Sequence record: MT446399.1
Length of the DNA: 51,729 nt
Strand: one strand, 5' to 3'
From: Escherichia virus TH25
Positions 8,569 through 51,729 of the stretch are shown one piece after another (within the stretch, counting starts at the first letter, position 1; the number at the start of each line of letters is the position of its first letter). The translations under genes and the position numbers were made by a program. Under the pieces are notes generated by a model, which worked only from the letters and a program-made list of their open reading frames with translations, was not told the origin of the DNA and ran no database searches.

Positions 8569-8915
8569 GTTAAGTAATCCTCAAGATTCCCGTAATCGGA
8601 GATAGCAATGAAAGAGATTCTTACTTCACGCTCACGGAAATCAGCATCAATGTTTATAGAGATAAGTTGTTGAACACCAGGAGTGCTTCGAATGACATTG
8701 GCGATAGCCGCCTCAATGTCGGCAGTTCGAACAGTTTTAGTGAAGATTCCTTCAAACCAAGGAAGACCAGTGGTCGGGTCATGTTTCCATTCTCCGAACA
8801 CCGTCAGTAATCTGCACTTAACTATTTGAGCAACCTCTTCTACACCACCAACCCTGGTTGCACCACGACCAATAATAATATCGTGGTTAGAATCTAATAG
8901 TAAGTTTCCAGCCAT
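8544..8915 (-). CDS. Baseplate protein W / gp25-like
   Basis: 123-aa ORF between V-like and J-like genes. Confidence 0.4.
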   Translation of the reverse strand: MAGNLLLDSNHDIIIGRGATRVGGVEEVAQIVKCRLLTVFGEWKHDPTTGLPWFEGIFTKTVRTADIEAAIANVIRSTPGVQQLISINIDADFREREVRISFIAISDYGNLEDYLTWQQSSTA

Positions 8916-9709
8916 TATTTCATCGGCCCTACATCGCCGCCTTCTGGGTTAGTGTGAGTGTGTTCGTTAACCGTGACCCCGTTAATGGTGAACGTACCCT
9001 GTTGAATCATGTTGCCTGTGATGGACATTGTTCCACCACCACTGCCACCGGACACAGACATTCCACCAAGTACAGTGAGTGACTTGGTAACTGTTGTGTC
9101 GCCATCCAGAAGGATTTGAGGCGAGATAACAGACGCTTTCTCTGTCGCTTCAATTACTATCTCCGAATCTTTCGTGATTGTAATCTTTGCAGCACCAGTA
9201 ATAAGTTCTACCTTTCCGTCACCATGAAGTGTCAGACGTTGGTCACGACTTGCATTTCGGAGTTCAGTAACTCCTGCATTAAATCCTGGTATTGCACCTG
9301 GAATTGGTTGTGTCCCAATAATACACACAGCAGAATTGTGAGAGAACAATTGGCTGAATGCTGGAGCAGGTCTTCCACCAATCATGCCAGCAGAGTCTTT
9401 ATTCTCTGCCAGCCAATGTTCGATTCCACGTTGAGCAAAATGAACATAGCAAGGAGTACCATCTGGGACTGGATGCGTTAAACTCCAGCCACCGCCCTGA
9501 ATGAATTGTACGGGAACATTTCTGAGCCGCTTCTTCTTCTCCAGGGTGTAGGCATTGGTGTAGCCTGTGAACAGGTTTTCGATTGCAAGCTGCACCTCAC
9601 ATGTTTGAGTTACAGCATCGAAGTTATAAATATGGCCTGGGTATCCTGTGTTAACAGTTGCAGACTTTACATCGTTGTTATGACTCGCCACGTTCAAGCA
9701 CACTCGCAT
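8915..9709 (-). CDS. Baseplate spike/hub protein (P2 gpV / Mu gp45-like)
   Basis: 264 aa; C-terminal NEHTHTNPEGGDVGPMK block resembles the conserved V/gp45 C-terminus. Confidence 0.5.
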   Translation of the reverse strand: MRVCLNVASHNNDVKSATVNTGYPGHIYNFDAVTQTCEVQLAIENLFTGYTNAYTLEKKKRLRNVPVQFIQGGGWSLTHPVPDGTPCYVHFAQRGIEHWLAENKDSAGMIGGRPAPAFSQLFSHNSAVCIIGTQPIPGAIPGFNAGVTELRNASRDQRLTLHGDGKVELITGAAKITITKDSEIVIEATEKASVISPQILLDGDTTVTKSLTVLGGMSVSGGSGGGTMSITGNMIQQGTFTINGVTVNEHTHTNPEGGDVGPMK

Positions 9710-10040
9710 CTACGATGAAGAGGAACATTTGTCGCCAAGTGTAGACCTCTTCTCCTGGGCTTACAGTATTCGTAACGTACATGTTCGGAAGTGGTGTACT
9801 GTATTGCTTAAGAATATCAATACCACCACGAATTGGGATTCCGTAAATCTTTTCAGATGCACCCCAAGCAAGGTCAAACATGTAACAGTTTAAATACTCG
9901 TTTAAATACAATGCAGACATTTTGACTGTGATTCCACGAAACTCAAAAGATACATCCTTTGAAATATCGTATGGAACAGTCTTCACATATCCTGGAGGGA
10001 GTAGTGATAATATTTCTTGCAGTGCTTGTTGTTCTGTCAT
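9678..10040 (-). CDS. Tail/baseplate protein, function unknown
   Basis: 120-aa ORF in baseplate cluster. Confidence 0.25.
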   Translation of the reverse strand: MTEQQALQEILSLLPPGYVKTVPYDISKDVSFEFRGITVKMSALYLNEYLNCYMFDLAWGASEKIYGIPIRGGIDILKQYSTPLPNMYVTNTVSPGEEVYTWRQMFLFIVDASVLERGES

Positions 10041-10939
10041 TTGAACAGCCTTCCTTTAACCGAGGACAGTGGAGATTCAAGTTTGGCAAGTTTGTCTTTC
10101 AACGTACCAAGTTGACTCACTGCCGTAGCACCTACTGCACCCAATCCAGGAAGAGAAATGCCAGCACCACCAAGAGCACCTATTCCAGCACTCTGTGCAA
10201 TCTTTGCAAACTCTGAATAGTCTGTCATTGATTGCATTGCTTTTCGAGCTTCAATTGCGAGCGTATCTTCTCCGATAACTTGCAACTCTTCGACTGTGAT
10301 TTCAACAGCCAATATTGCAGAAGTCATCTTGTCGGTTTTGGTTCGAATGCCTGTAACCACGCAATTCAAATAAGGTCCAACAATTGTAGAAATGTACAGC
10401 TTGGTTCCGTTTGCCCGAAAGCCATTAAACAATTCGTAGGTAGATTGGATTCGGTTGCTTGTTTCAAACGCAGAAGCAACAGCACCAGCAGCAGAGCCTA
10501 AGATTGGTATGATTGGGTTATTAAAGATTGCACCAGTTGCAACAGATAGACCTTGTACCGATGCAGTCCACATGGCAGAGTTCTGCATGTTGGAAGCAAC
10601 AGCAGTTAACTTAAGGACTCGGTTATGTTTGATGATGTGGTCACTGACTAAGAAGCCAGAGCTTACAGGAAACTTAGTAACTGTAGACTGCGCATCATGT
10701 TCTTCACTAACCATTGCATCAAACTTGAAAGAGTTAAAACTCTCTGGTGCATCTGTGGTGACAAGTGATTCCATTGCCTTGGCTATTCCACCAAAGGCTT
10801 TGCCAAACAACCCTTCATCTTCCTTCTGTGCAACTGGCCCATTAGACCACATAATTACGGACGGGTTGTGTCCATAACTAAAAGCCTTTGTTAGCATGGA
10901 GATTCCATCGCCCAACAAACTTGTATCAATTAATGCCAT
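10037..10939 (-). CDS. Tail/baseplate hub-associated protein, function unknown
   Basis: ORF 10037..10987 in track; ATG at 10939 overlaps upstream stop (TAATG), so start placed there. Confidence 0.3.
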   Translation of the reverse strand: MALIDTSLLGDGISMLTKAFSYGHNPSVIMWSNGPVAQKEDEGLFGKAFGGIAKAMESLVTTDAPESFNSFKFDAMVSEEHDAQSTVTKFPVSSGFLVSDHIIKHNRVLKLTAVASNMQNSAMWTASVQGLSVATGAIFNNPIIPILGSAAGAVASAFETSNRIQSTYELFNGFRANGTKLYISTIVGPYLNCVVTGIRTKTDKMTSAILAVEITVEELQVIGEDTLAIEARKAMQSMTDYSEFAKIAQSAGIGALGGAGISLPGLGAVGATAVSQLGTLKDKLAKLESPLSSVKGRLFK

Positions 10940-12045
10940 TAGAAAGACTCCATCGACATTCCACTGTTTAAATACATTTGCTGCCAAGCAGCTTCTTTAC
11001 CACCCATAGCAGTATTGCCACCAAGCATTGCTGTGATGGTAGTCTGGAAGACAGTTTCATGGGTTGAGCCATGATGAACAACTTCTGTAATGAAGTATTT
11101 ATCTTCCATAGCCCAGCGGAATACACTTTGGTCAGTGTTAAGAACAACACCCTTTCCGGTAACAGACGTTACACCATTTGCAAGCAGTTGCTCTCCCAAC
11201 AATGGGGATACATCAAGAATCATTCCTGGTTGATAACTTGCATTCAGGAATGTGTTCAATGAATATGTTGCAATGCCAGCAATCGGGTTGCCTATAACTT
11301 GGTTAGCATCCAGTTTGATTGGTTCACGGTCTTTCGACATTCTGTCTACGGCATCTTTATTCCCGTAGGTATCTGGGAAGATTTGAATCTCACCAGTGGT
11401 TACTGAGAACAGAAGATTGTATTCACCAAGAAGGGTTCTGAACTCTTCCAAGAATGTGTCATGAAATACACGACCGAGTTTAAGAACAGATTTGAAAACA
11501 GATTCATCAACACCAAAAGAAGAAATGGTTGAGAACCCATAGTCAGCACACATTGAACGAATAGCATCCTCAAGAGTTGCACCATTTGGAATGTCATTCA
11601 TTTGAGTGAATTCTGTTGATGCACCATATGCTTTGGAAATGCAGAACAACTGTGTTACGTGTTCTGGTGGACGTCTGAACCCAACTGCGTTTGTAACTAT
11701 GCCAGAAAAGATTGTCGGAAGTTTAGGACCAATTTCAATCCTTACTTCTGAATCAGCCTGTTCTGGACTTTGGTACTTACTATGACCAGCGTTTACTCCA
11801 CGCTCGTCTTCGAAATATCCTGCACGAATTTCAATATACATATCACCATAGGTCTTGTCTTGAAGGAACTTCACTTCATCAACACCAAGGTTGTATAGAG
11901 TAATGTCGGCAGTGTCAGCAGGCCAACCAACAGTTGACCGGATGGTGAAATCAATCTTGTGTGCTTTAAACACAGACTTTGTTTCAGGGTCATCCTTACG
12001 AGAGACAACTATCTCTATACCACGCATCCACGGCATGTTATACAC
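10939..12045 (-). CDS. Tail protein downstream of tape measure (distal tail/hub candidate)
   Basis: 368-aa ORF immediately after the tape-measure gene. Confidence 0.3.
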   Translation of the reverse strand: MYNMPWMRGIEIVVSRKDDPETKSVFKAHKIDFTIRSTVGWPADTADITLYNLGVDEVKFLQDKTYGDMYIEIRAGYFEDERGVNAGHSKYQSPEQADSEVRIEIGPKLPTIFSGIVTNAVGFRRPPEHVTQLFCISKAYGASTEFTQMNDIPNGATLEDAIRSMCADYGFSTISSFGVDESVFKSVLKLGRVFHDTFLEEFRTLLGEYNLLFSVTTGEIQIFPDTYGNKDAVDRMSKDREPIKLDANQVIGNPIAGIATYSLNTFLNASYQPGMILDVSPLLGEQLLANGVTSVTGKGVVLNTDQSVFRWAMEDKYFITEVVHHGSTHETVFQTTITAMLGGNTAMGGKEAAWQQMYLNSGMSMESF

Positions 12046-12111
12046 CTATTGAAATTAATACATGTTCAAATAATATTAAAGAAGAATGCCGAGATAAATC
12101 CCGGCACTTTC

Positions 12112-15100
12112 TTATCTACGTTCCATTGCACCATTACCCATGTTGATTGTTTGGGTAACAGTTTGACCGTTCGGAGTTGACACGGTTGCAGACGCTTGCT
12201 TATTGTTCACAGTAGCTTTGACTTCAACGTTAACTACAGTGGCCTGTGTCTGACCATAAGACAGCCCATTTCTGGTGAAGCCAGTTGCACCTTCTGCAAT
12301 AGAATCGCCCTGAGAAGCCCATTCACGGTACTTCTTGACGCGGTTCTGAGCCTGTAGAGGGACAGCATTGAGCCAATCAGTTCCGTGCTTGTTAATAGCA
12401 TCATCAACAGTTCCGGCACCATCTGTATACGCCGCCATAGCCTTCTCAGCGTCACCATTATAACGCTTGAGCATTGCATCGTAGTAGTCACGACCAACGC
12501 GAGCACGCTCTTCCAGTGAGTTATCACGGGCAGGTGTAACGCCGAATCCTGGGTCACGGGAAGTTGAATCAAGAACCTGCATACGACCTTTGGCACCAGT
12601 CGGAGATGTAACCACCGAACCGTCTGCGTTCAAATCGCGGTTCCCTGACTCTTCTCCTGCGATAAAGTCATATACCGTTCTGGTAGTATCAGCTAAACCA
12701 TTTGACGCTGTACGCGCTACTCTGGCTGCATCTCCACCTGCTTCGATAAATGAACTTCCGTAGGATATTGCAGCTTGCGGAACTGCGTATCCTGGCAGCA
12801 CCCCAGCACGCTCCGTCTGCGCTATTCCTAGCTGTGCAACACCATCGGCATACTGTGAGCTGGCTCCACGGCTTACGTTCTCCTGTGCCTCGTTTACGCT
12901 GTAATCTGTGCGGTCATAGGCGCGAGCCATGCCATCCAGACCTGCCATTTCCATAGCACCAGCGATACGCGCCTGACTCCAGCCCCGCTCCTGACCACGT
13001 TCACGCATTACCCGCGCTAAGGCTACAGGGTCGCCCTGTGCCGCACGAATGTCGCCAATAGTGATAAGACCACGGGTTCCCTGAACGATGTTGACAGCGC
13101 CGCTAGGGTCGCCATTCAGGAGGGTGTTATAGGCACTATGTGTGGTTCGATTGAGTCGGCCAGCTTGTTGCTGATTAAGCCCCAACATTTCCAAGCCCTG
13201 CGACATGGAAGAGTATTCATTAGGGTTATTGACACCAGCGTCTAAAGAGTTTCCATAGAAATCGTTCAGACCTTCTAGCGCCTCGTTACCAATCTGGGCA
13301 GCACCAATAGCCATACCCGCCACACGTCCCCACGGGGTCATCATGAGGGCATTCATTGCACCATTGGATAGTGAGCCTATGCTACCGCCAGCTACGCCAG
13401 CAGCCAATGCGCCACCAGCACGACCGAAGTCATCCGAGAAGCTGCCACCAACATTCCAACCACGACCGCCACCGCCACCGGAACCGCCTCCACCAATGCC
13501 ATAACTACTAGCATCGAAGGTGTCCCAGAAGCCACCACCACCGCCACGACCGCTATTGTCCCCGAAGTCGGCATCTTGTCCACGCAGCTTATTTTCTTCC
13601 TGAGCAGCGAGGATACCTTTCTTGACAGATACTGCCATCAGGTCATTGCCAGTTGTGCTGTCAGAGCCTACGGCAGAGGCTGTGGCTTCACCAACTCCAG
13701 CACTGGTACGGTTGCCTATGAATGGGTCATCGGCTGTACCAGCAGCGGCAGAGTAGCCACGCGTTGACTTCTGCTTAACATCCTTCCAGATGCCATCGCC
13801 AGTCATTGCAGCACGAGCACCTTTGATTAAATCATCATTGGACAAGTCTGAATTAGCTTCAACAAACTCTCGACCAGCATTAAGACGACCAATAGTAGAA
13901 TCAATCTTATCTTTGTTGCGTTCGTACCATCCCTCGTCCTTCTCAATCCATTCCGATACCGTCTTGTCTCCGATTGTCTGAGAGAACAATGCACGACTAC
14001 GGCCAGATACAAGCATACCAAATTGAATTTGGTCGAGATAATCCTTATGCTCACCAGCAGATAGGTTAGAAAACTTCTTAGCCCTTTCAGGGTTCTTGTG
14101 TTCCCAAATCGCGTCATCACCGATAAGGCCATCTGGGGAATACATGAACGACGGATAATTGTCATTTGTTATTGCGCCAGCTTGCTCAATGTCGAATCCA
14201 AACTCTTTGGCGACACGGTTACGAGCAACTTCTTCCGTCCGATGACCTGCTTCGAACATTCGTTGGGTAAATTCACTTGGCCCCTTTCCGCGTTGTAGGC
14301 CAATTTTATCAACCATTGCAGCCCAAGGTCGGGTATATTCATTGTTACCAAGAAACGAACCGACAGTTGAACCAGTAATGTCATATTGCTTGCGGAAGTC
14401 TAACCATTCCTGAGTGCCCTGTTCCATGTTGTGATAACGGATTGGGCCTTCTTGCGGAGCTGGTTGTGGAGCAGAGTCCAAATTAGATATAGCAATGCTC
14501 TCGCGACGGGCGCGAGCAGAGTTCCAACTTGTTGGAGAGTCAAGTTGTGCAAGAAACTCTGTAGAGGGACTCAGTTCTGCAGGTCCAGTATTCCTTAAAC
14601 GTTCAGCAGGGTCGAATGTTCGAGCGACTTCTGCCTCATTATATTGGTGAGCATCCTCAAGAACACCACGAATTGATGTACCAGAGTAACGAGGGTCGTC
14701 ACCAATATCTTTCTTAAGGTTATCGTAGCCGGAACGAACATCTGCAATGTCTGCATAACGAGAAGCAGAGTCCAGGATTAAGTCTCTGTCAGAAGATTGA
14801 GTGCGATATGCATTCATTCCTCTTTCAGCACCACCAGAATAAACCTTTGCCGCAGATTTAACTACGCCAGAAACATCTTGGTAGAGCGTTTTGCTTGCAT
14901 CAGACCAACCTGGAGAACCAGATAAGGATGCAGATAAAGAATATTCAGCCTTAATGCCACCACCAAACGAACCAAGAGGTAAACCAGATGCGTTAAGAGG
15001 TTGACGGGGATGCTGAATCCCACCAACAACAGATTCAGAACCAAGTTGAGGTAACGAATCCATGTATGAAAGTTTTGGCCCCGACTTATTTCCTACATTC

Positions 15101-15789
15101 ATTGCAGATACGGCAGCAACTTCTCGGAAGTTTTGCGGTAATTCTGATTCTAAACGTTTGGCTACACGATAAACATCTCGTGCATAGCGGTCTGGGTTGT
15201 CGTATTGTTCACGGTCAACATACATGTGAGCAAGATAGCCAAATGACTTGGCAATATCTCCACGGTTTGTGGAATATTCATCCATAATATTACCGGCATA
15301 GTGTCCGGCAAGTTCAGGCATTATATCTTGATGACCTGCAAGAGTATCTCGCATGTATGAGTTAAGCATTCCCCAATGACCTTCTGGCTTGTTGGGGTTA
15401 GCTTTAGGCATGTGCATCCAAACATCATCAGTGGATACACCAAGTTGTTCCATGTATGCGTGAACTGCTTCTACATGGTGTCCTGGTCCGTTCATTGCAG
15501 CATGGAATGTTTCAGTCAGCCCAGCGCCAGAAATCATCTGTGCTATATGTGCTGCATCTGAAATCATATCAGAAGTCCCGTATGAAGTTTCATCCTCATA
15601 CATCTGGGAATCTGGTTCGCCCAAAAGCTGTGAATTTGTTTCCATCCAACCTGACGCAGCACTTGATTCAAGTTGCTGGGCCATATCTCGTTTGCGCATA
15701 CCAGGATTGAAGGACAGACCGTACTGAGCACCCATGCCGATTAGCTCGGCCTCGGATAGCTTCATTAAATCTTTTAAGTTCTTAGCCAT
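12112..15789 (-). CDS. Tape-measure-like multidomain tail protein with internal YqaJ/lambda-exonuclease-like domain and lytic transglycosylase domain
   Basis: 1225 aa, in tape-measure position after G/G-T chaperone; aa ~455-640 match lambda Exo/YqaJ blocks (ITGSTVGS; MFEAGHRTEEVARNRV; YSPDGLIGDDAIWEHKNP; DQIQFGMLVSG); aa ~1035-1150 carry SLT motifs (EESGN..GAKGRMQ; AMAAYTDGAG); Gly-rich linker aa ~745-810. Confidence 0.6.
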   Translation of the reverse strand: MAKNLKDLMKLSEAELIGMGAQYGLSFNPGMRKRDMAQQLESSAASGWMETNSQLLGEPDSQMYEDETSYGTSDMISDAAHIAQMISGAGLTETFHAAMNGPGHHVEAVHAYMEQLGVSTDDVWMHMPKANPNKPEGHWGMLNSYMRDTLAGHQDIMPELAGHYAGNIMDEYSTNRGDIAKSFGYLAHMYVDREQYDNPDRYARDVYRVAKRLESELPQNFREVAAVSAMNVGNKSGPKLSYMDSLPQLGSESVVGGIQHPRQPLNASGLPLGSFGGGIKAEYSLSASLSGSPGWSDASKTLYQDVSGVVKSAAKVYSGGAERGMNAYRTQSSDRDLILDSASRYADIADVRSGYDNLKKDIGDDPRYSGTSIRGVLEDAHQYNEAEVARTFDPAERLRNTGPAELSPSTEFLAQLDSPTSWNSARARRESIAISNLDSAPQPAPQEGPIRYHNMEQGTQEWLDFRKQYDITGSTVGSFLGNNEYTRPWAAMVDKIGLQRGKGPSEFTQRMFEAGHRTEEVARNRVAKEFGFDIEQAGAITNDNYPSFMYSPDGLIGDDAIWEHKNPERAKKFSNLSAGEHKDYLDQIQFGMLVSGRSRALFSQTIGDKTVSEWIEKDEGWYERNKDKIDSTIGRLNAGREFVEANSDLSNDDLIKGARAAMTGDGIWKDVKQKSTRGYSAAAGTADDPFIGNRTSAGVGEATASAVGSDSTTGNDLMAVSVKKGILAAQEENKLRGQDADFGDNSGRGGGGGFWDTFDASSYGIGGGGSGGGGGRGWNVGGSFSDDFGRAGGALAAGVAGGSIGSLSNGAMNALMMTPWGRVAGMAIGAAQIGNEALEGLNDFYGNSLDAGVNNPNEYSSMSQGLEMLGLNQQQAGRLNRTTHSAYNTLLNGDPSGAVNIVQGTRGLITIGDIRAAQGDPVALARVMRERGQERGWSQARIAGAMEMAGLDGMARAYDRTDYSVNEAQENVSRGASSQYADGVAQLGIAQTERAGVLPGYAVPQAAISYGSSFIEAGGDAARVARTASNGLADTTRTVYDFIAGEESGNRDLNADGSVVTSPTGAKGRMQVLDSTSRDPGFGVTPARDNSLEERARVGRDYYDAMLKRYNGDAEKAMAAYTDGAGTVDDAINKHGTDWLNAVPLQAQNRVKKYREWASQGDSIAEGATGFTRNGLSYGQTQATVVNVEVKATVNNKQASATVSTPNGQTVTQTINMGNGAMERR

Positions 15790-16416
15790 TGTCTTCTTCT
15801 TTAGGTTTTAGTTCGTTACGCAAATCAAGTATTGCGTGGAAAGTTAACAAATCCATAATAGAGTAGGTTCCGTCCGATAGTTCTTTAAGAGAACAGAGAG
15901 AACTGTCCTCTATTACAGGACGGTGCAGGAAGTATTTTATTTCCGGGAACTTTTGAGTTAAATCGTTTCCGGACTCGAATTCTTCTGCTCGGCCATTTTG
16001 GATGCTTCCACCGCCTCCAATTGTCTGCGTTCGTTGAGTTCGAGCCCTTGCTTGAAAAAATCAAGGAAGTTCGATTCAAGAACAAATGCAAACACATGGT
16101 GCATGAGCATTAAATTGCCGTTGTACTTCATCTGCATAGTGCGTGGATTAACTTCGACACCATCAATGGTTGCCATACACACTACACGCTTAATTAATTC
16201 TGTTACTTCCGTATGAGTTCCACCTTGCTGCATCAAATGAATAATGTCTGCAAAGTTATATTTGTTCTCAACGAATGGGAATATCGAAATACCGAGTTTC
16301 TGAACAAGCTCGACCTGGAGGTCAAGAGCCTGGCTGGCACCGAGTTGTCGTGTACCAACCAAGACTATATCACCAGAGTCGGCTTGCAACTCGCGTTGGC
16401 GAAGTTCACAAGCCAT
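15782..16416 (-). CDS. Tail assembly chaperone G-T fusion product via -1 programmed frameshift
   Basis: -1 frame is open from 16060 down to a TAA at 15782-15784, overlapping the tape-measure ATG; shift site TTTTTTC at 16054-16060. Confidence 0.45.
15958..16416 (-). CDS. Tail assembly chaperone (gpG-like)
   Basis: 152-aa ORF between tube and tape-measure genes; contains slippery heptamer near its 3' end with a -1 frame open to the tape-measure start. Confidence 0.55.
   Translation of the reverse strand: MACELRQRELQADSGDIVLVGTRQLGASQALDLQVELVQKLGISIFPFVENKYNFADIIHLMQQGGTHTEVTELIKRVVCMATIDGVEVNPRTMQMKYNGNLMLMHHVFAFVLESNFLDFFKQGLELNERRQLEAVEASKMAEQKNSSPETI
16054..16060 (-). other. Slippery heptanucleotide T TTT TTC (candidate -1 frameshift site)
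   Basis: In-frame X XXY YYZ heptamer (GAT TTT TTC in G frame); both P- and A-site tRNA-Phe re-pair perfectly in -1 frame. Confidence 0.5.
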
Positions 16417-16432
16417 TCTCTCTTACCTTATA

Positions 16433-16888
16433 TTAGACGCCGATTTCTGGATACTGGCCAGTCACGATGGTAAGGCGTTCTACAAACACAGCCCACATAT
16501 TCGAAGTGAAGGTTACACCACGAACGATTGCTGGCTGTTGCAGAATTGCACCGTTGACACCGTTAACCAGTACGTCACCCATCTTGTCAACCAATTGCAA
16601 CTGCAAAGGTTCCCAGAGGGATTTGTTACCAGACAAACCAGTTGCACGAGTAAGCTGTGCACGTTGGTAAAGGATTTCGTTCCAATCTGCCGTTTGCAGC
16701 AGTGGGAAAGTAATAACCCCAGACTGGTCAGCAGTGGTTGCTACAGCAAGTTTGCCGTAAGCATCCATAACAGGAACATGCTGTGGCACGTTGTAGCGTG
16801 CCGTAATTACAGATTGCCCTGCCTGAAAACCGTCTACACGAGCACCGTCAATCAGGAGGTCTGTATTATAAAACGAATATTGCTTCAC
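16433..16888 (-). CDS. Tail tube protein
   Basis: 151-aa ORF immediately downstream of sheath gene; position-based. Confidence 0.5.
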   Translation of the reverse strand: MKQYSFYNTDLLIDGARVDGFQAGQSVITARYNVPQHVPVMDAYGKLAVATTADQSGVITFPLLQTADWNEILYQRAQLTRATGLSGNKSLWEPLQLQLVDKMGDVLVNGVNGAILQQPAIVRGVTFTSNMWAVFVERLTIVTGQYPEIGV

Positions 16889-16897
16889 TGTTCACCC

Positions 16898-18346
16898 TTA
16901 CTGAATGAAGTTGCCAGAGATTACAGCACCCTGGATTGCACCGGAACCGATAGCAATAAAGGAAGTACCTTCCCAAATACGTTCACCCTTCTGCGACTGC
17001 AAGAGTTCCAACGGAGTCGAGATAACTTTGTAGCCTTCTGGATAGAAGGTGCCTTCGTTATCGTAGCCCGGAGCGATAAGGCCGTTGGTCTTAGCGAGTT
17101 CAAGCGCCAGGGTTACTTGCTGGTTAACCATTGCTACACCAGTGTCCGTCCAAGGAATCTTGGTAGTGGAGGTGTAGAACAAGTTGAACACGTTCAGTCG
17201 AACTTTCTGAGTCAGCCACTCAACACCTTGTACGGAGTCGAACCATGTGCCGTCAGCCATACGACCGTTGTAGAACATTACGTTGCCAGCAACAGAAATG
17301 AATGCGTTACCACCACAAGAAAGCAGTGCGCTTACCTGACCAGAAGACAGGTCAGCAGTGGAGATACCTGGACCTTTCTTGTATGCCAGAATAAGAACAG
17401 AGTTTGCAACGTTGAAGTTAACAGTTGATGCACGACCCAGGATAGAAATTTCCGGATATTCATCACCATTCGCAGAAGCATCGTAAACACACAGAGTGTT
17501 ACGCAGGTTCTGGTTCTTAGCACGACGGAAGCTGTTATTAGTGCCGTTGATAAGAATGTTCTTGTCGTTATCACCCCAGCCAAATACTTTGCTGGATGCT
17601 TCACACCACTTCGCCACAGACATTTGGTTGTCTACTGGAGAGGTTTTGCCACGATACTGTCGGTCAAGGCCTACATAGAAGAAGTTGAATGGAGCATCTG
17701 CAATATTAGACAAGTCGGAAGAAATGGATAGCTCGTTCTTACCAGCAACAATAACTGCACTGTCAGAAGATTGCAGCTTCAACACTTCACCAACTTTACC
17801 ACCAACGTTACTGATAGTTGCATTGATGCCAGTTGCAGAAGTTGTCAGTTTGAACTTGCCAACTTCCTGAGTAACAGTTACGCCAGCACCAACAGAGGAC
17901 AGTGAGGTAGTTACCAAATTTGCAACTTCTTCGAAGTCAGCAGCAGCAGAGAAATCAATCGGGTCAGTAACATACTGAACACCGCTAACACTTAACTGCA
18001 TGGTTGCAGCAGTTTCCAGCTTAATGGTTGCCAATACAGCAGCAGTTGCAGCAGTAACAGTGGCAGGAGTTGCTGGAGTCAGGGTATCATACTTGATAGC
18101 ACCGACCAGGAAAGTCTTCGGAGTTGGCTTCTGCGAGTACCAAGCGGTAGCAGCTTTAGCAATCTCACCACCAGGGAAGTCTGCGAGAACTTCTTTCAAA
18201 CTGGTGTACGAGCGAACCGGATATACATCAACGGTTGGTACAAACTCTTTACTCAGGAAGAGCAACGGCCCAAAACCATCAGTCGCAATGGCGTTCGGGG
18301 AGATTGCGATATCAACCTGAACTAAGTCAGAAATTGGGATTGACAT
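16898..18346 (-). CDS. Tail sheath protein
   Basis: 482-aa ORF preceding tube gene; size and position typical of contractile-tail sheath. Confidence 0.5.
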   Translation of the reverse strand: MSIPISDLVQVDIAISPNAIATDGFGPLLFLSKEFVPTVDVYPVRSYTSLKEVLADFPGGEIAKAATAWYSQKPTPKTFLVGAIKYDTLTPATPATVTAATAAVLATIKLETAATMQLSVSGVQYVTDPIDFSAAADFEEVANLVTTSLSSVGAGVTVTQEVGKFKLTTSATGINATISNVGGKVGEVLKLQSSDSAVIVAGKNELSISSDLSNIADAPFNFFYVGLDRQYRGKTSPVDNQMSVAKWCEASSKVFGWGDNDKNILINGTNNSFRRAKNQNLRNTLCVYDASANGDEYPEISILGRASTVNFNVANSVLILAYKKGPGISTADLSSGQVSALLSCGGNAFISVAGNVMFYNGRMADGTWFDSVQGVEWLTQKVRLNVFNLFYTSTTKIPWTDTGVAMVNQQVTLALELAKTNGLIAPGYDNEGTFYPEGYKVISTPLELLQSQKGERIWEGTSFIAIGSGAIQGAVISGNFIQ

Positions 18347-29481: not shown

Positions 29482-30555
29482 TTATTTCTGGAGATACTCT
29501 GCATGAGGGATTATACGGTTCTCTTTAAGATGGAATCGGTCAATGACACCTTTGTAGTGCCACAAGCGAACGAGATTCCCATCATCAATTTGGTGATGCA
29601 TGTACACGAGTCGACCAACTTTGAGAAGCTCTTCTTCCCAACCGTCACCGAATCGCATGATAAATGCACCAATAACTTTCTTCAAACCTTCTGCATAAGT
29701 AGTGGTCTTATCCAAAAGTTCGAAAGATTCGACAGCACCGACACCACTTCGACGGAAATATGTTTCTCCAGCCTTGGCACCAGTCTTGTAAATCTTCTCT
29801 TCCAATACGCCACAACCCATAACGTTATCCGTTGAGTCGCCGATAAGGAGTTGATGCAAGAAGAATTTAGGGCCACAACCTTTAACTTCTTTCTTCTTAG
29901 ATTTACCGTTGTCTTTGATAATTAATTTGAGTTCACCGTAATCCTTCGGGATTACAATCTTCTCACCAATACCCTGGGATTCACGCTCCCATTGGTAATG
30001 TTTGATTACTGGACCAGTGTCACCGAATTGTCCGATTTGGCGCAAGTCTTTGTCAAGCGACGCAATCCAAACTTCATCATATGTGCACGGACCAATACGC
30101 GTGAGGCTTTTAATCTCATTACGTTTACCCATTGTTGCTTCGTATTCATGGCGAGCGAATACAGCCAGAAGGTCATCTGCTTCCAGACCCTTCATCCACA
30201 TTCCATTCCATGCAACCATGAGATGTGCTTTCGCATTCTTAAGGTTTTCTGGACGCCATACGCCATCACGGTTGCCCTTGTAGTCAGGAGCAAATTCGTT
30301 GCGCATTGTTTTAGATGGCGAGATGAAAGTAATAACTTCCGTAGCACCAGCACGTTTGGCGAGGAATTCCATTTTAGAATCCATCGACATTTGAATCTTA
30401 GCAAAGTTAATATCTTCGGGGTCTTTGCCGTACTCTTCAGCAGCACAGTGGCTGAATGCAACCATGTCGCCGTCTACCAGCAACAATACTCGTTTCTTAC
30501 TCACTTTGGTAAGCTCCAAATTAAAGGCTCCCGAAGGAGCCATATTGTTCAACAA
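29482..30555 (-). CDS. 5'-3' exonuclease / flap endonuclease
   Basis: 357 aa; LLLVDGDMVAF, GLEADDLLA and LIGDSTDNV blocks of the FEN/5' nuclease family. Confidence 0.75.
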   Translation of the reverse strand: MLNNMAPSGAFNLELTKVSKKRVLLLVDGDMVAFSHCAAEEYGKDPEDINFAKIQMSMDSKMEFLAKRAGATEVITFISPSKTMRNEFAPDYKGNRDGVWRPENLKNAKAHLMVAWNGMWMKGLEADDLLAVFARHEYEATMGKRNEIKSLTRIGPCTYDEVWIASLDKDLRQIGQFGDTGPVIKHYQWERESQGIGEKIVIPKDYGELKLIIKDNGKSKKKEVKGCGPKFFLHQLLIGDSTDNVMGCGVLEEKIYKTGAKAGETYFRRSGVGAVESFELLDKTTTYAEGLKKVIGAFIMRFGDGWEEELLKVGRLVYMHHQIDDGNLVRLWHYKGVIDRFHLKENRIIPHAEYLQK

Positions 30556-48283: not shown

Positions 48284-49183
48284 ATAAATGGACATGCTTA
48301 ATTGCAACCAATTCATCTGCCAAATAGACGAATTTAGTCACAATCAAACATGCTCATTAATTACAGGTTTGCTCCTATCTTGGAATGTATTTGGCACATC
48401 AAGAAGTGGCGCAATAGGTACGGAAAACCGACCATGTACAGCATAATAAAACTAATTAAATAAAGGGTTTTATCCCAATATTGTCACAATATTTACATGC
48501 GATGATAAAGCCTTCGCTTGGCTGGAAGCCAGTATTCATGCGGGTTGCAAGAATATTGGGTGAATATTGATACATTTATTACATGCGAAATTGGCACAAA
48601 TACTGTTACAAAATTAACATGCCGGATTGGTAGACAATTGTATCTTCGAGGTGATTAGTCCTCTAACAATTCTGCCACATTCTAACATGCCAATTTGTAG
48701 CAATATTTACATGCCATACTGTAGCAATATTGCCACAATATTTGTTGCTCAAAATCGGGGCGGCTTCTGCGTGAAAACGAGAGGCTTTGCTCCGACTCTT
48801 CTCTTCTTTCGAATTCTGATTGAAAGAAAGAAGCATGTCCAAAAGTTCCAGTCTTGCCAAAGTTATCTCCCGGCTTGTGGGTGGGCCTTGATAATAGGAG
48901 ATGGAGCAATATTGAAACAAGTGAACATGCTTAGGTTTGCTGACTTTCTTGTAACTTAATCAAGATGGCTAACACGATGTTCTGTTGTTAGTTCAGCACC
49001 GGAAGAACAGTTTCGAATGATAATCCTACTTCACACATGGTTGCTGGAACTTTGTCCGGCCAAAGACAGGGAGTTCAATGATTGCCACATCATTACAACG
49101 CTGTGTGTTTAGTTGACATGCTGAAATGTTTCTAGAATGATTTCAACATGACATGCGGAAGATTTCTCCGTATTCTGTTACTT

Positions 49184-49198
49184 CACATCCAACTAATG
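49184..49198 (-). promoter_or_regulatory. Recurrent motif copy (+ strand CACATCCAACTAATG)
   Basis: Consensus copy at right edge of repeat region. Confidence 0.3.
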
Positions 49199-49249
49199 TC
49201 GAATATCGGGACAATATCACATGCAGCAATATTGTCCGAATATTGGGAA

Positions 49250-49408
49250 TCAGTGTAGGGTAGGCTTAACTACATCGTAAACTTTATCACCATCTGTGAT
49301 ACATGCTTCATCATAGTTATAGCCAACTGCAAAGTCTCTTGCTTCTTGCAGTGTTGCAAACATACGAATGATTTCAAATTCAGTACTAGAAAGAATTAAA
49401 GTAAACAT
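49250..49408 (-). CDS. Small hypothetical protein
   Basis: Track ORF to 49465; ATG at 49408 has GGAG 9 nt upstream and lies 30 bp downstream of a motif copy. Confidence 0.35.
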   Translation of the reverse strand: MFTLILSSTEFEIIRMFATLQEARDFAVGYNYDEACITDGDKVYDVVKPTLH

Positions 49409-49437
49409 TATAAAAGTCTCCAATTGGTTATTAGATT

Positions 49438-49452
49438 CACATGCAACTAATG
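49438..49452 (-). promoter_or_regulatory. Recurrent motif copy (+ strand CACATGCAACTAATG)
   Basis: 30 bp upstream of ATG 49408. Confidence 0.35.
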
Positions 49453-49472
49453 CCATCCTTGGCACATAGTTG

Positions 49473-51413
49473 TTACTGGCAGAAGTAGTAAGCGTGTTCG
49501 CTCATCAGAAGTTCTTCTGTTACGATGTTCTCATGGTACATGTTGATGCCACCAAGTTGCTTGGACAGAGATTCAAACTGATTATTGTGAACAAAGATTT
49601 CAACATAAGCAGAACGAATAACTTCCATCATTTTAGGAGCATCAGCTAAGCAGCAACGGAAACAATCGTGAATTGAAGTGAAACCACGAAGACCAGCTTC
49701 TTTAGCTTTGACTGCAACAGTACGAGCAACCAATGCGTCAATACCTTGAATGTAGTTAACAACGAAGGTACGCTTGAATTCTTCTTTAGTTGGATTGGAC
49801 TCACGAATGGTCCAAGGCTTATTCTCCTGAATCTGACCAAAGATGACACGAGTTTGAGAGTCAACACGAATGCTGAACGCATCACAAACATCACGAGATG
49901 GGAAGCAAGGCTTCATTACAACCTGACCATCAGTGTGCTTATAGGTGATGTACTCTTTGTTGAGTTCAACACAACGGTTGTATGCAGCATCAGCAGCTTT
50001 CTCGATGAACATGTTAATCTTAGCACCCAATGCATTATGGATTGCTTCTACACAAAGTTCAGCAAATGCTTCTGCTTTCTCCATAGGAATCTGGAGCGCT
50101 TCTGTCATGTATGCGATGAAGTCAGAAGAACCAGTTAATGCAGCTTTACCACCACCATATTGGATAGCCATGTATGGAGTTTTGATAAACTTACGACCAG
50201 CTTTCGGATTCAAGAATTCATCCATAATTTCAGCGGATGGTTTCATTGAAGAACGGTCAAGCAACTTCAACAGTTCACGAAGAGATAACTGGTATGGGTC
50301 AGATGCTTTAGTCTCAGAATCAACCAGACCTGTTGCACGAGCCATCTCCATGTTACCAGCAATGAATGCCAGATATTGAGTACCAGAACATTTAGCATCT
50401 AAGCCAAAGCCTACACGAGAATCACACTCACCTGTAGTCTCAAACTTGAACCAATCCAGAGCTAATCGAACATAAGTGAATGGCTTAGAAGGACGCTCAC
50501 CTTTAGGCATGTTCAGCATACGAGCCAAAGAACCAGCAGGATTCTGTGCAACATAAGTTAAACGTTTAGCAGAAGTCCAGTCTCCACCAGCAATATCTTC
50601 CAGCTCAAGCATGAACATGTTGTATGCCAGAGTTGTAGAACCATCAGCATTAAACTTGCTCACAGTGTTCTCAACATTGTGGGAATACAGGCAACGAGCA
50701 AAGTCAGATGATTGTGGGTTAGGACCAGCACACGCTACGTGATACAGACGACCACGGTTATCAGCAAAGTAGTCAGAGAACAGAGTGTCCTGACCAACCA
50801 TTGCTACAGCATTGTTCCAAACATGGAGTTCAGTCTGGATTGCTTCTGGCATCTGCAAGCCACCAAATGTACGTTGTTCTAACATGGAAGAGATAACCTT
50901 AACCATTGTTGCATCGACGTGATATTCAGTATCTTGCAGGAATTCGATTGCAGCTTTCAGAGTCTTGGATGGCTTAACTTTGCCACCTTTAACGAAAGGC
51001 TTGCGACGAGATTCAGTTGTTACCTTCTCAGTGAATGGAACTGAGGTATCTTTGGTTGTAACCAGTTCAACCCATGCGTCAGTCATCTGGAACGATTTGT
51101 CCTCGTTCATGGTGATGAAACCGAAGTGTTTAGCCAGACCAATCAGGTTGATAGCTGGGTCAACATAGTGCATTGATTTCAAGTCGTTGTTGTAACGGTT
51201 GGCATCAGCAATAGAAGCAGAAGCCAGTTCAACCATCGAGATAGCCGGAATAACGTCATCACGCGTGAAAGACGTCATCATCTTGAATATGGCTAAGGCA
51301 GCAATAGCACAAGTCTGGGGCTGCATATAGTTCTGCTTCTCTTTGGCACGATATACCAGAGCGGTGATAGCAGGAACAACAGATTTGATAGTTTGAGTAG
51401 TGATAGTAGTCAT
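49473..51413 (-). CDS. Single-subunit DNA-dependent RNA polymerase (T7-like, compact)
   Basis: Blocks matching T7 RNAP: DNRGRLYHV (DWRGRVYAV), LDAKCSGTQY (DGSCSGIQH, motif A), YMAIQYGGGK (MTLAYGSKE, motif B), TSIHDCF (LIHDSFG, motif C); ATG at 51413 has GGAG 9 nt upstream; 646 aa. Confidence 0.8.
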   Translation of the reverse strand: MTTITTQTIKSVVPAITALVYRAKEKQNYMQPQTCAIAALAIFKMMTSFTRDDVIPAISMVELASASIADANRYNNDLKSMHYVDPAINLIGLAKHFGFITMNEDKSFQMTDAWVELVTTKDTSVPFTEKVTTESRRKPFVKGGKVKPSKTLKAAIEFLQDTEYHVDATMVKVISSMLEQRTFGGLQMPEAIQTELHVWNNAVAMVGQDTLFSDYFADNRGRLYHVACAGPNPQSSDFARCLYSHNVENTVSKFNADGSTTLAYNMFMLELEDIAGGDWTSAKRLTYVAQNPAGSLARMLNMPKGERPSKPFTYVRLALDWFKFETTGECDSRVGFGLDAKCSGTQYLAFIAGNMEMARATGLVDSETKASDPYQLSLRELLKLLDRSSMKPSAEIMDEFLNPKAGRKFIKTPYMAIQYGGGKAALTGSSDFIAYMTEALQIPMEKAEAFAELCVEAIHNALGAKINMFIEKAADAAYNRCVELNKEYITYKHTDGQVVMKPCFPSRDVCDAFSIRVDSQTRVIFGQIQENKPWTIRESNPTKEEFKRTFVVNYIQGIDALVARTVAVKAKEAGLRGFTSIHDCFRCCLADAPKMMEVIRSAYVEIFVHNNQFESLSKQLGGINMYHENIVTEELLMSEHAYYFCQ

Positions 51414-51481
51414 TTGTAAGTCTCCAAGATTGTGTATGATTTGAATGAAACGGATTATAATAGCGTAGCCATTACACAATT

Positions 51482-51496
51482 CACGTCCAACTAATA
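51482..51496 (-). promoter_or_regulatory. Recurrent motif copy (+ strand CACGTCCAACTAATA)
   Basis: 69 bp upstream of RNAP ATG; a TATAAT hexamer (minus strand, 51454-51459) lies between motif and gene. Confidence 0.35.
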
Positions 51497-51729
51497 TCAC
51501 AAACCTGTGCCATTGTTAGCACAGCACGGAGACTTTGACCTTGACTCATAAGCGAAGCGCCTAACTTGGTGTTGTTTGAAAGCCGATAGGCTGTAGAAAA
51601 AGTTGGGGTAGGGACCGTATTTAAGTCCGATAGGACGTTGGGCTTCCCCTCCCCGCCACCTCAAAAATAAAAATAATATTGCCACAATTCTAGTCTCATT
51701 AATATTGAAACAATTTGAGTCTCATTAAT

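What the first reader, a model, noticed from the sequence alone, without database searches (positions are those of the whole stretch)
12112..15789. Tape-measure-like tail protein with an embedded lambda-exonuclease/YqaJ-type nuclease domain plus a lytic transglycosylase domain
The 1225-aa ORF sits in the tape-measure position, after a G/G-T chaperone with a canonical frameshift and before the baseplate genes. Residues ~455-640 (nt ~13870-14427) read YDITGSTVGSF / MFEAGHRTEEVARNRV / YSPDGLIGDDAIWEHKNP / DYLDQIQFGMLVSG. These line up with the conserved blocks of lambda exonuclease and YqaJ PD-(D/E)XK nucleases (GVITASEV / WGKQYENDAR / CSPDGL..GLELKCP / AYMAQVQYSMWV), and the D...E-x-K catalytic residues are retained. 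Residues ~1035-1150 (nt ~12340-12700) carry lytic transglycosylase motifs, and a Gly-rich linker separates the two. A protein expected to be ejected with the genome that pairs a DNA exonuclease fold with a muralytic domain is not a standard tape-measure architecture. Possible roles are end processing of incoming DNA, attack on host or competing DNA, or counter-defence.
Basis: partly seen in the sequence, partly recalled or inferred. Interest (0 to 1): 0.8.

Follow-up and report, generated by a model that had tools for sequence, protein, structure and literature searches.

The report
Phage tape-measure protein carrying an exonuclease
The large tail protein that this E. coli/Yersinia phage fires into the cell ahead of its DNA contains a well-conserved lambda-exonuclease-type DNA nuclease as well as the usual wall-cutting enzyme; this cargo has not been described for such proteins, and what it does is untested.

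Summary

- **Active site.** The catalytic D553/E563/K565 and the 5'-phosphate-pocket Arg (R466) are invariant in 66 homologs. They are also invariant in the sister subfamily and in more distant metagenomic relatives, some of which have no detectable SLT.
- **Position.** The gene follows a Phage_TAC_15 chaperone. Its in-phase T-TTT-TTC slippery site and -1 extension are conserved in all 6 relatives examined. Dit-like, plug and spike genes follow.
- **Virion presence.** The window is a Chaseviridae (phiEcoM-GJ1-like) myophage. The 64%-identical 4HA13 ortholog was found in CsCl-purified virions at 64-67% sequence coverage.
- **Atypical tape measure.** It has no TMP-family hit. AlphaFold shows globular domains joined by disordered linkers, not a long helix. 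It is about 430 aa too long for a 116.5 nm tail.

Most likely it is a tape-measure/ejection protein that delivers an active 5'-3' exonuclease with the genome. I infer that the substrate is the genome's own terminally redundant ends. The gene family is already in databases, but I found no paper describing the architecture. I rate it a new variant of a known kind, with moderately high interest.

The parts
15958..16416 (-). Tail assembly chaperone (G-like product, 152 aa)
   Evidence: Pfam Phage_TAC_15 E=2.9e-14. Annotated 'tail assembly chaperone' in 4HA13.
16054..16060 (-). Slippery heptamer T TTT TTC (X XXY YYZ in the chaperone's zero frame) for a -1 frameshift
   Evidence: In phase at ORF offset 356. 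The same heptamer, in phase, is present in all 6 relatives checked, including Nefertitivirinae and metagenomic lineages.
15782..16053 (-). -1 frame extension (T-like part of the G-T fusion, about 90 codons). Its stop codon (15782-15784) overlaps the start of the large ORF.
   Evidence: Translation. Extensions of 88-96 codons ending at or just before the large gene occur in 6/6 relatives.
12112..15789 (-). 1225-aa tape-measure-position virion protein (whole ORF including the stop codon)
   Evidence: ORF. Full-length match to PHROG 19855 'virion structural protein'. About 90 homolog clusters. The ortholog is found in virions.
15655..15780 (-). aa ~4-45: putative Rho_N/SAP-like helix-extended-helix motif (possible nucleic-acid binding)
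14650..15564 (-). aa ~76-380: N-terminal helical domain of unknown function, confined to Cleopatravirinae-type proteins
   Evidence: AlphaFold pLDDT about 80-95. No PDB fold match. tblastn hits only Chaseviridae.
13720..14442 (-). aa ~450-690: lambda-exonuclease/YqaJ PD-(D/E)XK nuclease domain. Key codons: R466 at 14392-14394, D553 at 14131-14133, E563 at 14101-14103, K565 at 14095-14097.
   Evidence: Residue invariance.
13276..13584 (-). aa ~736-838: Gly-rich low-complexity linker followed by two Gly/Ala-rich, mildly hydrophobic segments (794-812, 815-833); candidate membrane-active region
   Evidence: Composition and hydropathy (Kyte-Doolittle maxima about 1.0, below a classical TM threshold). 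AlphaFold pLDDT <50.
12805..13275 (-). aa ~839-995: confidently predicted all-helical domain, the best-conserved part of the C-terminal half
   Evidence: pLDDT >90. Mean identity 0.65 over aa 801-960. Weak similarity reaches Aeromonas phage BUCT696.
12310..12687 (-). aa ~1035-1160: SLT-type lytic transglycosylase domain (E1047-S1048 nearly invariant)
   Evidence: Pfam PF01464. PHROG endolysin and lytic tail protein families. AlphaFold and Foldseek. Conservation.
12115..12309 (-). aa 1161-1225: C-terminal tail with weak beta-strand prediction; candidate tail-tip anchor
   Evidence: Low-confidence strands. N1195 and N1216 invariant, R1225 nearly so. By analogy with the Pa193 TMP C-terminus, which is bound to the tail tip; this is inference only.
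8915..12045 (-). Downstream baseplate core genes: 368 aa (hub-like), 316 aa Dit-like, 120 aa plug-like, 264 aa spike
   Evidence: Pfam Dit_like, Pam3_gp18 and spike N-terminal domain. 4HA13 annotation: baseplate hub / tail protein / baseplate spike.
16433..18346 (-). Upstream tail tube (151 aa) and tail sheath (482 aa, DUF3383/E217_gp31_N type)
   Evidence: Pfam PF11863 E=2e-55. Annotations.

Best explanation
This is the tape-measure-position virion protein of a Chaseviridae myophage. It is built as a string of modules on flexible linkers and acts as an ejection protein.

Shown:
- It is encoded directly after a frameshifting tail assembly chaperone and before the baseplate core.
- A close ortholog is in purified virions.
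- It contains a lambda-Exo/YqaJ-fold domain whose D-ExK triad and 5'-phosphate-binding Arg are invariant over very deep divergence.
- It also contains an SLT domain.

Inferred:
- As in related phages, the C-terminus sits at the tail tip and leaves first.
- The C-terminal half (anchor, SLT, helical domain, Gly/Ala-rich hydrophobic segment) would therefore cut peptidoglycan and engage the inner membrane.
- The N-terminal half (Rho_N/SAP-like motif, helical domain, exonuclease) would lie next to the leading DNA end and enter last, with the DNA.
- The domains are probably unfolded or compacted in the tail lumen and fold on release.
- The nuclease is most likely an active, possibly trimeric, 5'-3' exonuclease.

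My preferred substrate is the incoming genome's own 5'-phosphorylated, terminally redundant (~3 kb DTR) ends. Resection would leave 3' tails that RecBCD cannot load on, and those tails could pair between the repeats. This last step is the least certain.
For: - Position: TAC Pfam hit; slippery T TTT TTC plus -1 extension here and in 6/6 relatives; Dit-like, plug and spike genes downstream; identical synteny in distant loci L005-L007.
- Virion presence: the 4HA13 'tail tape measure protein' (P0024, 64% identical) is listed second among the twelve proteins in the LC-MS/MS ion-chromatogram figure of CsCl-purified virions and has 64-67% sequence coverage. That coverage is too high for either side of the internal nuclease domain to have been trimmed off.
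- Nuclease fold and active site. Invariance of R466, E519, D553, E563, K565, Q587 and Q589 in 66 homologs and in relatives at 17-33% identity. The nuclease region is among the best-conserved parts of the protein (0.62 identity against 0.42-0.44 in the flanks).
- It is retained where SLT is not detected (BUCT696, P0100, P0101).
- C-terminus at the tail tip, trimeric TMP and 'unfolded in the lumen, folds on ejection' are documented or proposed for Pa193, which has the same type of structural module.
- Genome ends: Chaseviridae genomes are linear with ~3 kb terminal repeats.
- A separate FEN-type 5'-3' exonuclease (window 29482-30555) covers the replicative role, so the virion-borne nuclease probably has a distinct function.
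Against: - No enzymatic, structural or genetic data exist for the nuclease domain.
- The protein matches no TMP family.
- AlphaFold shows globular domains and disorder, not long helices.
- At 0.15 nm/aa it is about 430 aa too long for the 116.5 nm tail of 4HA13, so how folded 25-kDa domains are housed is unexplained.
- The virion preparation also contained SSB, so contamination is not fully excluded.
- No annealase partner was detected.
- With only 3-6 copies per virion, one toroid could act on one end only.
- Nothing shows that the N-terminal half reaches the cytoplasm.
- The hydrophobic segments score below a typical TM threshold.
Confidence: 0.5

Rival explanations
1. The injected exonuclease is a weapon against other DNA. 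It would degrade host chromosomal, plasmid, prophage or co-infecting phage DNA, or a DNA component of a defence system, as an immediate-early takeover or counter-defence function that needs no phage gene expression.
For: The active site is intact and invariant. The protein is in virions. Virion-delivered effector proteins with DNase domains are an established theme (ParB-like DNases in polyvalent proteins).
Against: From established knowledge, lambda-Exo-type enzymes need a free 5'-phosphorylated dsDNA end, and an intact circular chromosome or plasmid offers none. Only a few molecules are delivered per virion. No partner endonuclease domain is present in the protein. No PADLOC or anti-defence evidence was sought or found.
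Confidence: 0.2
2. The domain works mainly as a DNA-end clamp, not as a degradative enzyme. It would hold the leading 5'-phosphate end of the packaged genome, so that ejection of the protein draws the DNA into the cell and shields the end from RecBCD, in the manner of T4 gp2 or Mu N.
For: The 5'-phosphate pocket Arg R466 is invariant. The domain lies in the N-terminal half, which by inference is proximal to the DNA, next to a possible SAP/Rho_N-like nucleic-acid-binding motif. The trimeric TMP stoichiometry seen in Pa193 would match the lambda-Exo toroid (my own knowledge).
Against: Pure binding modules usually lose their catalytic residues. Here D553, E563 and K565 are invariant down to 17-33% identity. 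The HeH motif is only borderline.
Confidence: 0.15
3. The nuclease acts in the producing cell, not at entry. As an abundant late protein it would help degrade host DNA or process replication and recombination intermediates before being built into tails, and its presence in the virion would be incidental.
For: The nearest relatives of the domain outside the family are stand-alone 200-320 aa recombination-type YqaJ proteins. The phage lacks a separate YqaJ/RecE-type gene.
Against: The fusion sits at the same internal position across two subfamilies and further lineages, which argues that co-delivery matters. The phage already has a FEN-type exonuclease. No annealase partner was found. A TMP bound by its chaperone is an unlikely free enzyme.
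Confidence: 0.08
4. The protein is not the tape measure at all. It would be a cargo or ejection protein lodged in the tail or neck, with tail length set by something else.
For: No TMP family hit. A non-helical multidomain prediction. A ratio of 0.097 nm/aa instead of about 0.15.
Against: No other candidate gene lies between the chaperone and the baseplate. The G/GT frameshifting chaperone immediately upstream is the conserved partner of TMPs, and it is conserved here. The Pa193 TMP in the equivalent position also has an embedded SLT domain.
Confidence: 0.07

Closest known systems
Tape measure proteins with embedded peptidoglycan hydrolase domains (e.g. Pseudomonas phage Pa193 gp41; mycobacteriophage TM4 TMP; T5 pb2)
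   Same: The gene sits after the tail assembly chaperone and before the baseplate or tip genes. The protein is in the virion. It has an internal lytic transglycosylase domain. It is proposed to be extruded and to fold on ejection (Pa193: PMC11456595). The sheath, terminator, capsid and portal Pfam families are of the same E217/Pa193/XM1 type.
   Different: Pa193 gp41 is 858 aa for a ~130 nm tail, which is 0.15 nm/aa. This family is about 1200-1280 aa for ~116 nm. It adds an N-terminal ~700 aa that contains a lambda-Exo nuclease. No nuclease is reported in those TMPs. There is no sequence-family hit to TMP models.
Lambda exonuclease / LHK-Exo / YqaJ recombination exonucleases (PF09588, PD-(D/E)XK)
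   Different: Those enzymes are stand-alone ~200-230 aa early or recombination proteins paired with an annealase. Here the domain is buried in the middle of a 1225-aa late structural protein, no annealase was detected, and the NCBIfam lambda-exonuclease model scores below its curated cutoff (48.2 against 68.05). Trimer formation and activity are untested.
T7 gp16 internal core / ejection protein
   Same: A large (>1200 aa) virion protein ejected before the DNA, with an SLT-type lytic transglycosylase domain. The LT domains match structurally (9jyy_I, probability 1.0, 129 columns). The phage shares T7-like RNAP, primase-helicase and Pol A genes.
   Different: gp16 is a head-internal core protein of a podophage, with the LT domain at its N-terminus (my own knowledge). 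This protein is encoded in the tail module of a myophage, has the LT domain near its C-terminus, and shows no other detectable similarity. gp16 has no nuclease.
Polyvalent proteins of phages and conjugative elements (Iyer et al. 2017, PMC5512222)
   Same: The concept matches: a multidomain protein delivered with the invading DNA that combines a peptidoglycan-cleaving domain with nucleic-acid-acting enzymatic domains for the earliest phase of invasion.
   Different: [quoted passage not shown] It mentions neither YqaJ, nor lambda exonuclease, nor tape measure. None of its hallmark domains were detected here.
DNA-end-protecting virion proteins (T4 gp2, Mu N)
   Same: The proposed logic matches: a virion protein that meets the genome end at entry and protects it from RecBCD (my own knowledge).
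   Different: Those proteins bind ends without a nuclease fold. No homology was detected. The resemblance is functional inference only.

Membership tests
YqaJ / lambda exonuclease family (PF09588, PD-(D/E)XK) | Significant match to the family profile above the curated threshold | tested here: met
   PF09588 E=4.8e-12, 46.8 bits against a cutoff of 22, covering profile positions 1-149 of 150. However, NCBIfam TIGR03033 scores 48.2 bits, below its 68.05 cutoff.
YqaJ / lambda exonuclease family (PF09588, PD-(D/E)XK) | Lambda-Exo-type alpha/beta fold | tested here: met
   [not shown]
YqaJ / lambda exonuclease family (PF09588, PD-(D/E)XK) | Catalytic D...E-x-K triad and 5'-phosphate-binding Arg | tested here: met
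   D553, E563, K565 and R466 align with the LHK-Exo and lambda Exo residues. They are invariant in 66 homologs and in 10 distant relatives.
YqaJ / lambda exonuclease family (PF09588, PD-(D/E)XK) | Toroidal homotrimer and processive 5'-3' exonuclease activity | not testable with these tools
   No multimer prediction or assay was available.
YqaJ / lambda exonuclease family (PF09588, PD-(D/E)XK) | Pairing with a single-strand annealing protein (Red-beta/RecT/Erf) in a recombination module | tested here: not met
   No such Pfam family was found among 41 early/middle ORFs or in the 4HA13 annotation. The gene lies in the tail module.
SLT lytic transglycosylase (PF01464) | Profile match above threshold and a lysozyme-like fold | tested here: met
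   28.9 bits against 21.3, E=9.3e-7. pLDDT >90 for aa 1035-1160. Foldseek probability 0.98-1.0 to Slt/LtgA/MltD/T7 gp16, though E-values are only 0.01-0.09.
SLT lytic transglycosylase (PF01464) | Catalytic Glu in the E-S motif | tested here: inconclusive
   E1047-S1048 are nearly invariant (at least 90%) in the family, but they lie upstream of the Pfam-aligned stretch (which starts at profile position 31). No residue-level superposition was available.
Phage tail tape measure protein | Gene immediately downstream of a tail assembly chaperone with a programmed -1 frameshift, and upstream of the baseplate or tip genes | tested here: met
   (6/6 relatives).
Phage tail tape measure protein | Present in the virion | tested here: met
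   The evidence is for the 64%-identical 4HA13 ortholog only: LC-MS/MS of CsCl-purified virions, 64-67% coverage. Caveat: SSB was also detected.
Phage tail tape measure protein | Match to a TMP sequence family | tested here: not met
   There are no TMP models among the Pfam, PHROG or NCBIfam hits. The full-length PHROG hit is 'virion structural protein'.
Phage tail tape measure protein | Predominantly extended alpha-helical chain whose length scales with tail length (~0.15 nm per residue) | tested here: not met
   The prediction shows globular domains plus about 330 poorly ordered residues. 4HA13 has 1204 aa for 116.5 nm, or 0.097 nm/aa. Pa193 has 858 aa for ~130 nm, or 0.15 nm/aa.
Phage tail tape measure protein | Occupies the tail tube lumen and determines tail length | not testable with these tools
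   This needs cryo-EM or length-mutant genetics.
Polyvalent proteins (Iyer et al. 2017) | Hallmark effector domains of that network (MPTase, ArdC-N, ParB-like DNase, methylase/helicase, LPDs) | tested here: not met
   Only YqaJ and SLT were detected. The paper does not list YqaJ or lambda Exo.

The most novel reading that the evidence does not exclude
Three copies of the tape-measure protein assemble their nuclease domains into a lambda-Exo-like ring at the cytoplasmic end of the ejection conduit. The ring threads the leading genome end and processively resects one strand of the ~3 kb terminal repeat. This would make the end invisible to RecBCD, prime repeat-mediated circularisation or concatemer formation, and possibly help ratchet the first kilobases of DNA into the cell. 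It would be a virion-delivered, exonuclease-based genome-entry and end-protection mechanism that needs no prior gene expression.
Probability: 0.12. Interest if true: 0.85.

Novelty: new variant of a known kind. Interest (0 to 1): 0.62.

Why it matters
Tape-measure and ejection proteins are known to carry wall-degrading enzymes. A conserved, apparently active DNA exonuclease delivered ahead of or with the genome would be a new class of cargo. It bears on a poorly understood step: what happens to the ends of a linear phage genome in the first seconds inside a cell full of RecBCD and other end-sensing defences.

The family is easy to work with. It comprises E. coli, Yersinia, Erwinia, Pectobacterium and Proteus phages, several of which are being developed for biocontrol, and the prediction can be tested with point mutants. 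The finding also warns annotators: this gene is variously labelled tail fiber, tail tube initiator, tape measure, endonuclease or hypothetical in GenBank.

Tried and rejected
- **Mobile insertion or intein.** I considered that the nuclease might be a selfish insertion. I rejected this because there are no Hint, intein or homing-endonuclease hits, the domain is at the same place in every relative including distant ones, and virion peptide coverage is 64-67%.
- **Degenerate nuclease domain in some homologs.** Five clusters lacked a precomputed PF09588 hit. In the alignments that include them, the catalytic residues are still invariant, so the missing hits are threshold effects.
- **N-terminal motif.** Single-sequence searches of the first 50-60 aa found nothing. 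Only the family profile reached Rho, at borderline E-values.
- **Nuclease-domain-only homolog search.** It returned only 7 small stand-alone YqaJ proteins. It did not even recover the family itself, so it says nothing about similar fusions elsewhere.
- **Exhaustive phmmer search.** Beyond about 20 family and distant-family representatives it was swamped by SLT-only hits.
- **Papers not held.** I could not read the phiEcoM-GJ1 genome paper or the Erwinia Y2 paper, so earlier remarks on this gene there cannot be excluded.
- **Literature searches.** Searches for YqaJ or a nuclease domain together with tape measure, virion or Chaseviridae found no description of this architecture.

Full report
**Observation.** The ORF is as described: 12112..15789 on the minus strand, ATG start, 1225 aa. 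Its residue and nucleotide ranges are correct. The nuclease, aa 455-640, maps to nt 13870-14427. The SLT, aa ~1035-1150, maps to nt ~12340-12687.

Evidence for the nuclease domain:
- Pfam gives YqaJ (PF09588), aa 461-597, E=4.8e-12, well above its gathering score.
- PHROGs gives RecE-like and exonuclease families over aa 431-643, down to E=6.8e-21.
- NCBIfam's lambda-exonuclease model matches at E=1.2e-12 but below its curated cutoff.
- Against PDB sequences the best hit is LHK-Exo (3syy, E=4e-8 for the isolated domain), with SPDG...E-x-K aligned.
- The lambda Exo alignment is weak by sequence (E~0.45) but colinear. It aligns W462/R466 with the lambda W24/R28 block, D553/E563/K565 with the catalytic D-ExK, and Q587/Q589 with the QxQ block (lambda residue numbers from my own knowledge).

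Evidence for the SLT domain:
- Pfam gives SLT (PF01464), aa 1060-1136, E=9.3e-7, above its gathering score.
- PHROGs gives endolysin and lytic-tail families over aa 978-1200.

**Structure.** I predicted the protein in two overlapping halves, each aligned with 65 homologs.

- The N-half model is very confident (pLDDT >90) for aa ~450-690. It is fairly confident (~80-95) for a helical domain at aa ~76-380. Linkers at 53-75 and 383-446 are disordered.
- Foldseek matches the nuclease region to LHK-Exo (E=1e-7, TM 0.76 on the target) and to lambda Exo (TM 0.65-0.68).
- The C-half model shows disorder at aa 664-715 and a helix at 716-735. A long low-confidence Gly-rich and mildly hydrophobic stretch covers 736-834. 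A confident helical domain covers ~839-989, followed by a linker. A confident SLT domain covers ~1035-1160, and the C-terminus has weak beta strands.
- Foldseek links the C-half to Slt/LtgA/MltD and to the LT domain of T7 gp16. Probabilities are 0.98-1.0 but E-values are only 0.01-0.09.

**What the window is.** The gene is 95-98% identical in DNA to Escherichia phages TH24/TH29/TH23 and Yersinia phage PYps23T. It is 62-66% identical in protein to phiEcoM-GJ1, 4HA13, flopper and ST32, and 44-54% identical to Erwinia, Pectobacterium, Pantoea and Proteus phages. All of these are Chaseviridae, subfamily Cleopatravirinae.

The rest of the window fits this assignment. It encodes a T7-like RNAP, primase-helicase, Pol A, a FEN-type 5'-3' exonuclease, ligase, terminase, portal, capsid and tail terminator. 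GenBank labels for this gene are inconsistent: tape measure, tail fiber, tail tube initiator, virion structural protein, putative endonuclease, hypothetical.

**Is it in the tape-measure position?** Yes.
- The upstream 152-aa ORF is a Phage_TAC_15 chaperone.
- It contains T TTT TTC in the X XXY YYZ phase at 16060-16054. The -1 frame is open from there for ~90 codons, to a stop that overlaps the ATG of the large ORF.
- The same in-phase heptamer, with an 88-96 codon extension ending at or just before the large gene, is present in PYps23T, 4HA13, Aeromonas phage BUCT696 (Nefertitivirinae) and three distant metagenomic or genomic loci.
- Upstream lie the sheath (DUF3383/E217_gp31_N) and the tube. 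Downstream lie a hub-like protein, a Dit-like protein, a Pam3_gp18-like plug and a spike.
- No other candidate gene lies between the chaperone and the baseplate.

**Is it in the virion?** For the 4HA13 ortholog (P0024, 1204 aa, 64% identical, named 'tail tape measure protein' by NCBI), yes. LC-MS/MS was run on twice-CsCl-banded virions. In that paper's ion-chromatogram figure the ortholog is second in the list of the twelve proteins shown. Sequence coverage was 64-67% of the 128-kDa protein.

The nuclease domain is internal. Removing everything N-terminal through it would cap coverage near 47%. Removing everything from it to the C-terminus would cap coverage near 37%. The domain is therefore very probably retained. 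The caveat is that SSB was also detected, so the preparation was not free of non-structural protein.

**Conservation.**
- About 90 clusters at 90% identity share the full-length architecture down to 39% identity, and almost all carry precomputed PF09588 and PF01464 hits.
- In 30- and 66-sequence alignments the following are invariant: W462, R466, T472-G473-S474, E519, S551-P552-D553-G554, E563-H564-K565, D586-Q587 and Q589. E1047-S1048 of the SLT are nearly invariant.
- The nuclease region is among the most conserved parts (0.62 mean identity to the query, against 0.42-0.44 in the flanking linkers).
- An exhaustive phmmer search of 1.84 billion representatives found about 11 family representatives and then more distant 1190-1450 aa proteins.
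- Pfam shows that every one of those distant proteins, and the Nefertitivirinae ortholog BUCT696 gp54, keeps YqaJ. SLT is not detected in BUCT696, P0100 and P0101.
- R466, E519, D553, E563, K565, Q587 and Q589 remain invariant in this set at 17-33% overall identity.
- Three of these distant genes sit in the same sheath-tube-TAC_15-[gene]-Dit_like-spike-sheath initiator-Baseplate_J context.

The embedded nuclease, not the muralytic domain, is therefore the hallmark of this gene lineage.

**In what way is it not a standard TMP?**
- No TMP sequence family matches.
- The predicted structure is beads on a string, not a long helix.
- The length does not fit the tail. 4HA13 has a 116.5 nm uncontracted tail, so 1204 aa gives 0.097 nm per residue.
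- Pa193 has a structural module of the same Pfam families. Its TMP gp41 is 858 aa for a ~130 nm tail, or 0.15 nm/aa. It has an internal transglycosylase domain, and its C-terminus is bound as a trimer to the tail tip.
- The Chaseviridae protein thus carries roughly 430 residues more than its tail 'needs'. That is comparable to the nuclease plus part of the N-terminal region.
[quoted passage not shown] The same would have to hold here, or the N-terminal part would have to sit in the neck.

**Layout and mechanism (inference).** If the C-terminus is at the tail tip, as in Pa193, the module order from C to N is:
1. tip anchor;
2. SLT;
3. helical domain;
4. Gly/Ala-rich hydrophobic segments (Kyte-Doolittle ~1.0, below a classical TM score);
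5. exonuclease;
6. helical domain;

That order mirrors the path into the cell: peptidoglycan first, then the membrane, then DNA. It places the DNA-related modules next to the genome's leading end.

Chaseviridae genomes are linear with ~3 kb direct terminal repeats. The window holds one copy of the homologous region, at 48839-51624. Terminase-cut ends carry 5' phosphates (my own knowledge), which is the preferred lambda-Exo substrate, and the pocket Arg is invariant. A separate FEN-type exonuclease exists for replication. No annealase was detected.

I therefore favour an entry-stage role on the phage's own ends: resection that blocks RecBCD loading and exposes the repeats for pairing. The alternatives are:
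- attack on foreign DNA;
- a non-degradative end clamp;
- a producer-cell role;
- the protein not being the true tape measure.

None of these is excluded.

**Novelty.** The gene family is in public databases with its Pfam domains, and one record even calls it 'putative endonuclease'. I found no paper that describes or discusses a lambda-Exo/YqaJ domain in a tape-measure or virion protein.

I classify this as a new variant of a known kind: a tape-measure/ejection protein with enzymatic cargo, where the new cargo is an exonuclease. It is conserved across a whole ICTV family and beyond.

**Verdict.** The function is unproven. Interest is 0.62.

Noticed in passing
[not shown]
   Followed up: partly
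window 12112-15789 (-): The 1225-aa protein contains no cysteine at all. This may fit a protein that must travel unfolded and refold in the oxidising periplasm.
   Followed up: no
window 12001-14000: Local G+C rises to 0.515 against ~0.44 for the window, with strong negative GC skew (-0.148). This coincides with the Gly/Ala-rich C-terminal half of the gene, so it is probably a codon-composition effect and not foreign DNA.
   Followed up: partly
window 14516-15567 (query nt 223-1274 of the gene): Mosaicism within the gene. phiEcoM-GJ1 and 'Staphylococcus phage Pel53' match at 80-83% DNA identity only over the part encoding aa ~75-425. MLP1 matches in two pieces covering 79%. N-terminal 450-aa identity to phiEcoM-GJ1 is 81%, against 66% for the whole protein. 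This suggests recombinational exchange of modules.
   Followed up: no
GenBank PP952070.1 (hit H25/H118): A phiEcoM-GJ1-like Chaseviridae genome is deposited as 'Staphylococcus phage Pel53' with host Staphylococcus hyicus. This is an implausible host for this Gammaproteobacteria-infecting family, so it is possibly a mis-assignment or contamination.
   Followed up: no
L005 17583-18629: In a distant metagenomic relative, a RelA_SpoT-domain gene (348 aa) is inserted in the baseplate module between the spike and the sheath initiator. It could be a (p)ppGpp- or ppApp-type effector.
   Followed up: no
window 48839-51624: The region homologous to the 3.1-kb direct terminal repeat of 4HA13, which contains the T7-like RNA polymerase gene (window 49473-51500), is present once, at the right end of the window. 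There is no copy at the left end. The window is probably a genome assembly with the repeat collapsed, in reverse orientation relative to the reference records.
   Followed up: partly
window 29482-30555 (-) and early/middle region 26500-51700: The phage has a separate FEN-type 5'-3' exonuclease. No recognisable single-strand annealing protein was found among 41 early/middle ORFs; only Thy1, dUTPase, dCTP-deaminase-like, Peptidase_M15_4 and DUF7279 were detected.
   Followed up: partly
L001 8022-8357 versus window 16433-16888: The tail tube gene is annotated as only 336 nt in PYps23T, whereas the window and 4HA13 have a 151-152 aa ORF in that position. This is a likely start-codon mis-call in that record.
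   Followed up: no
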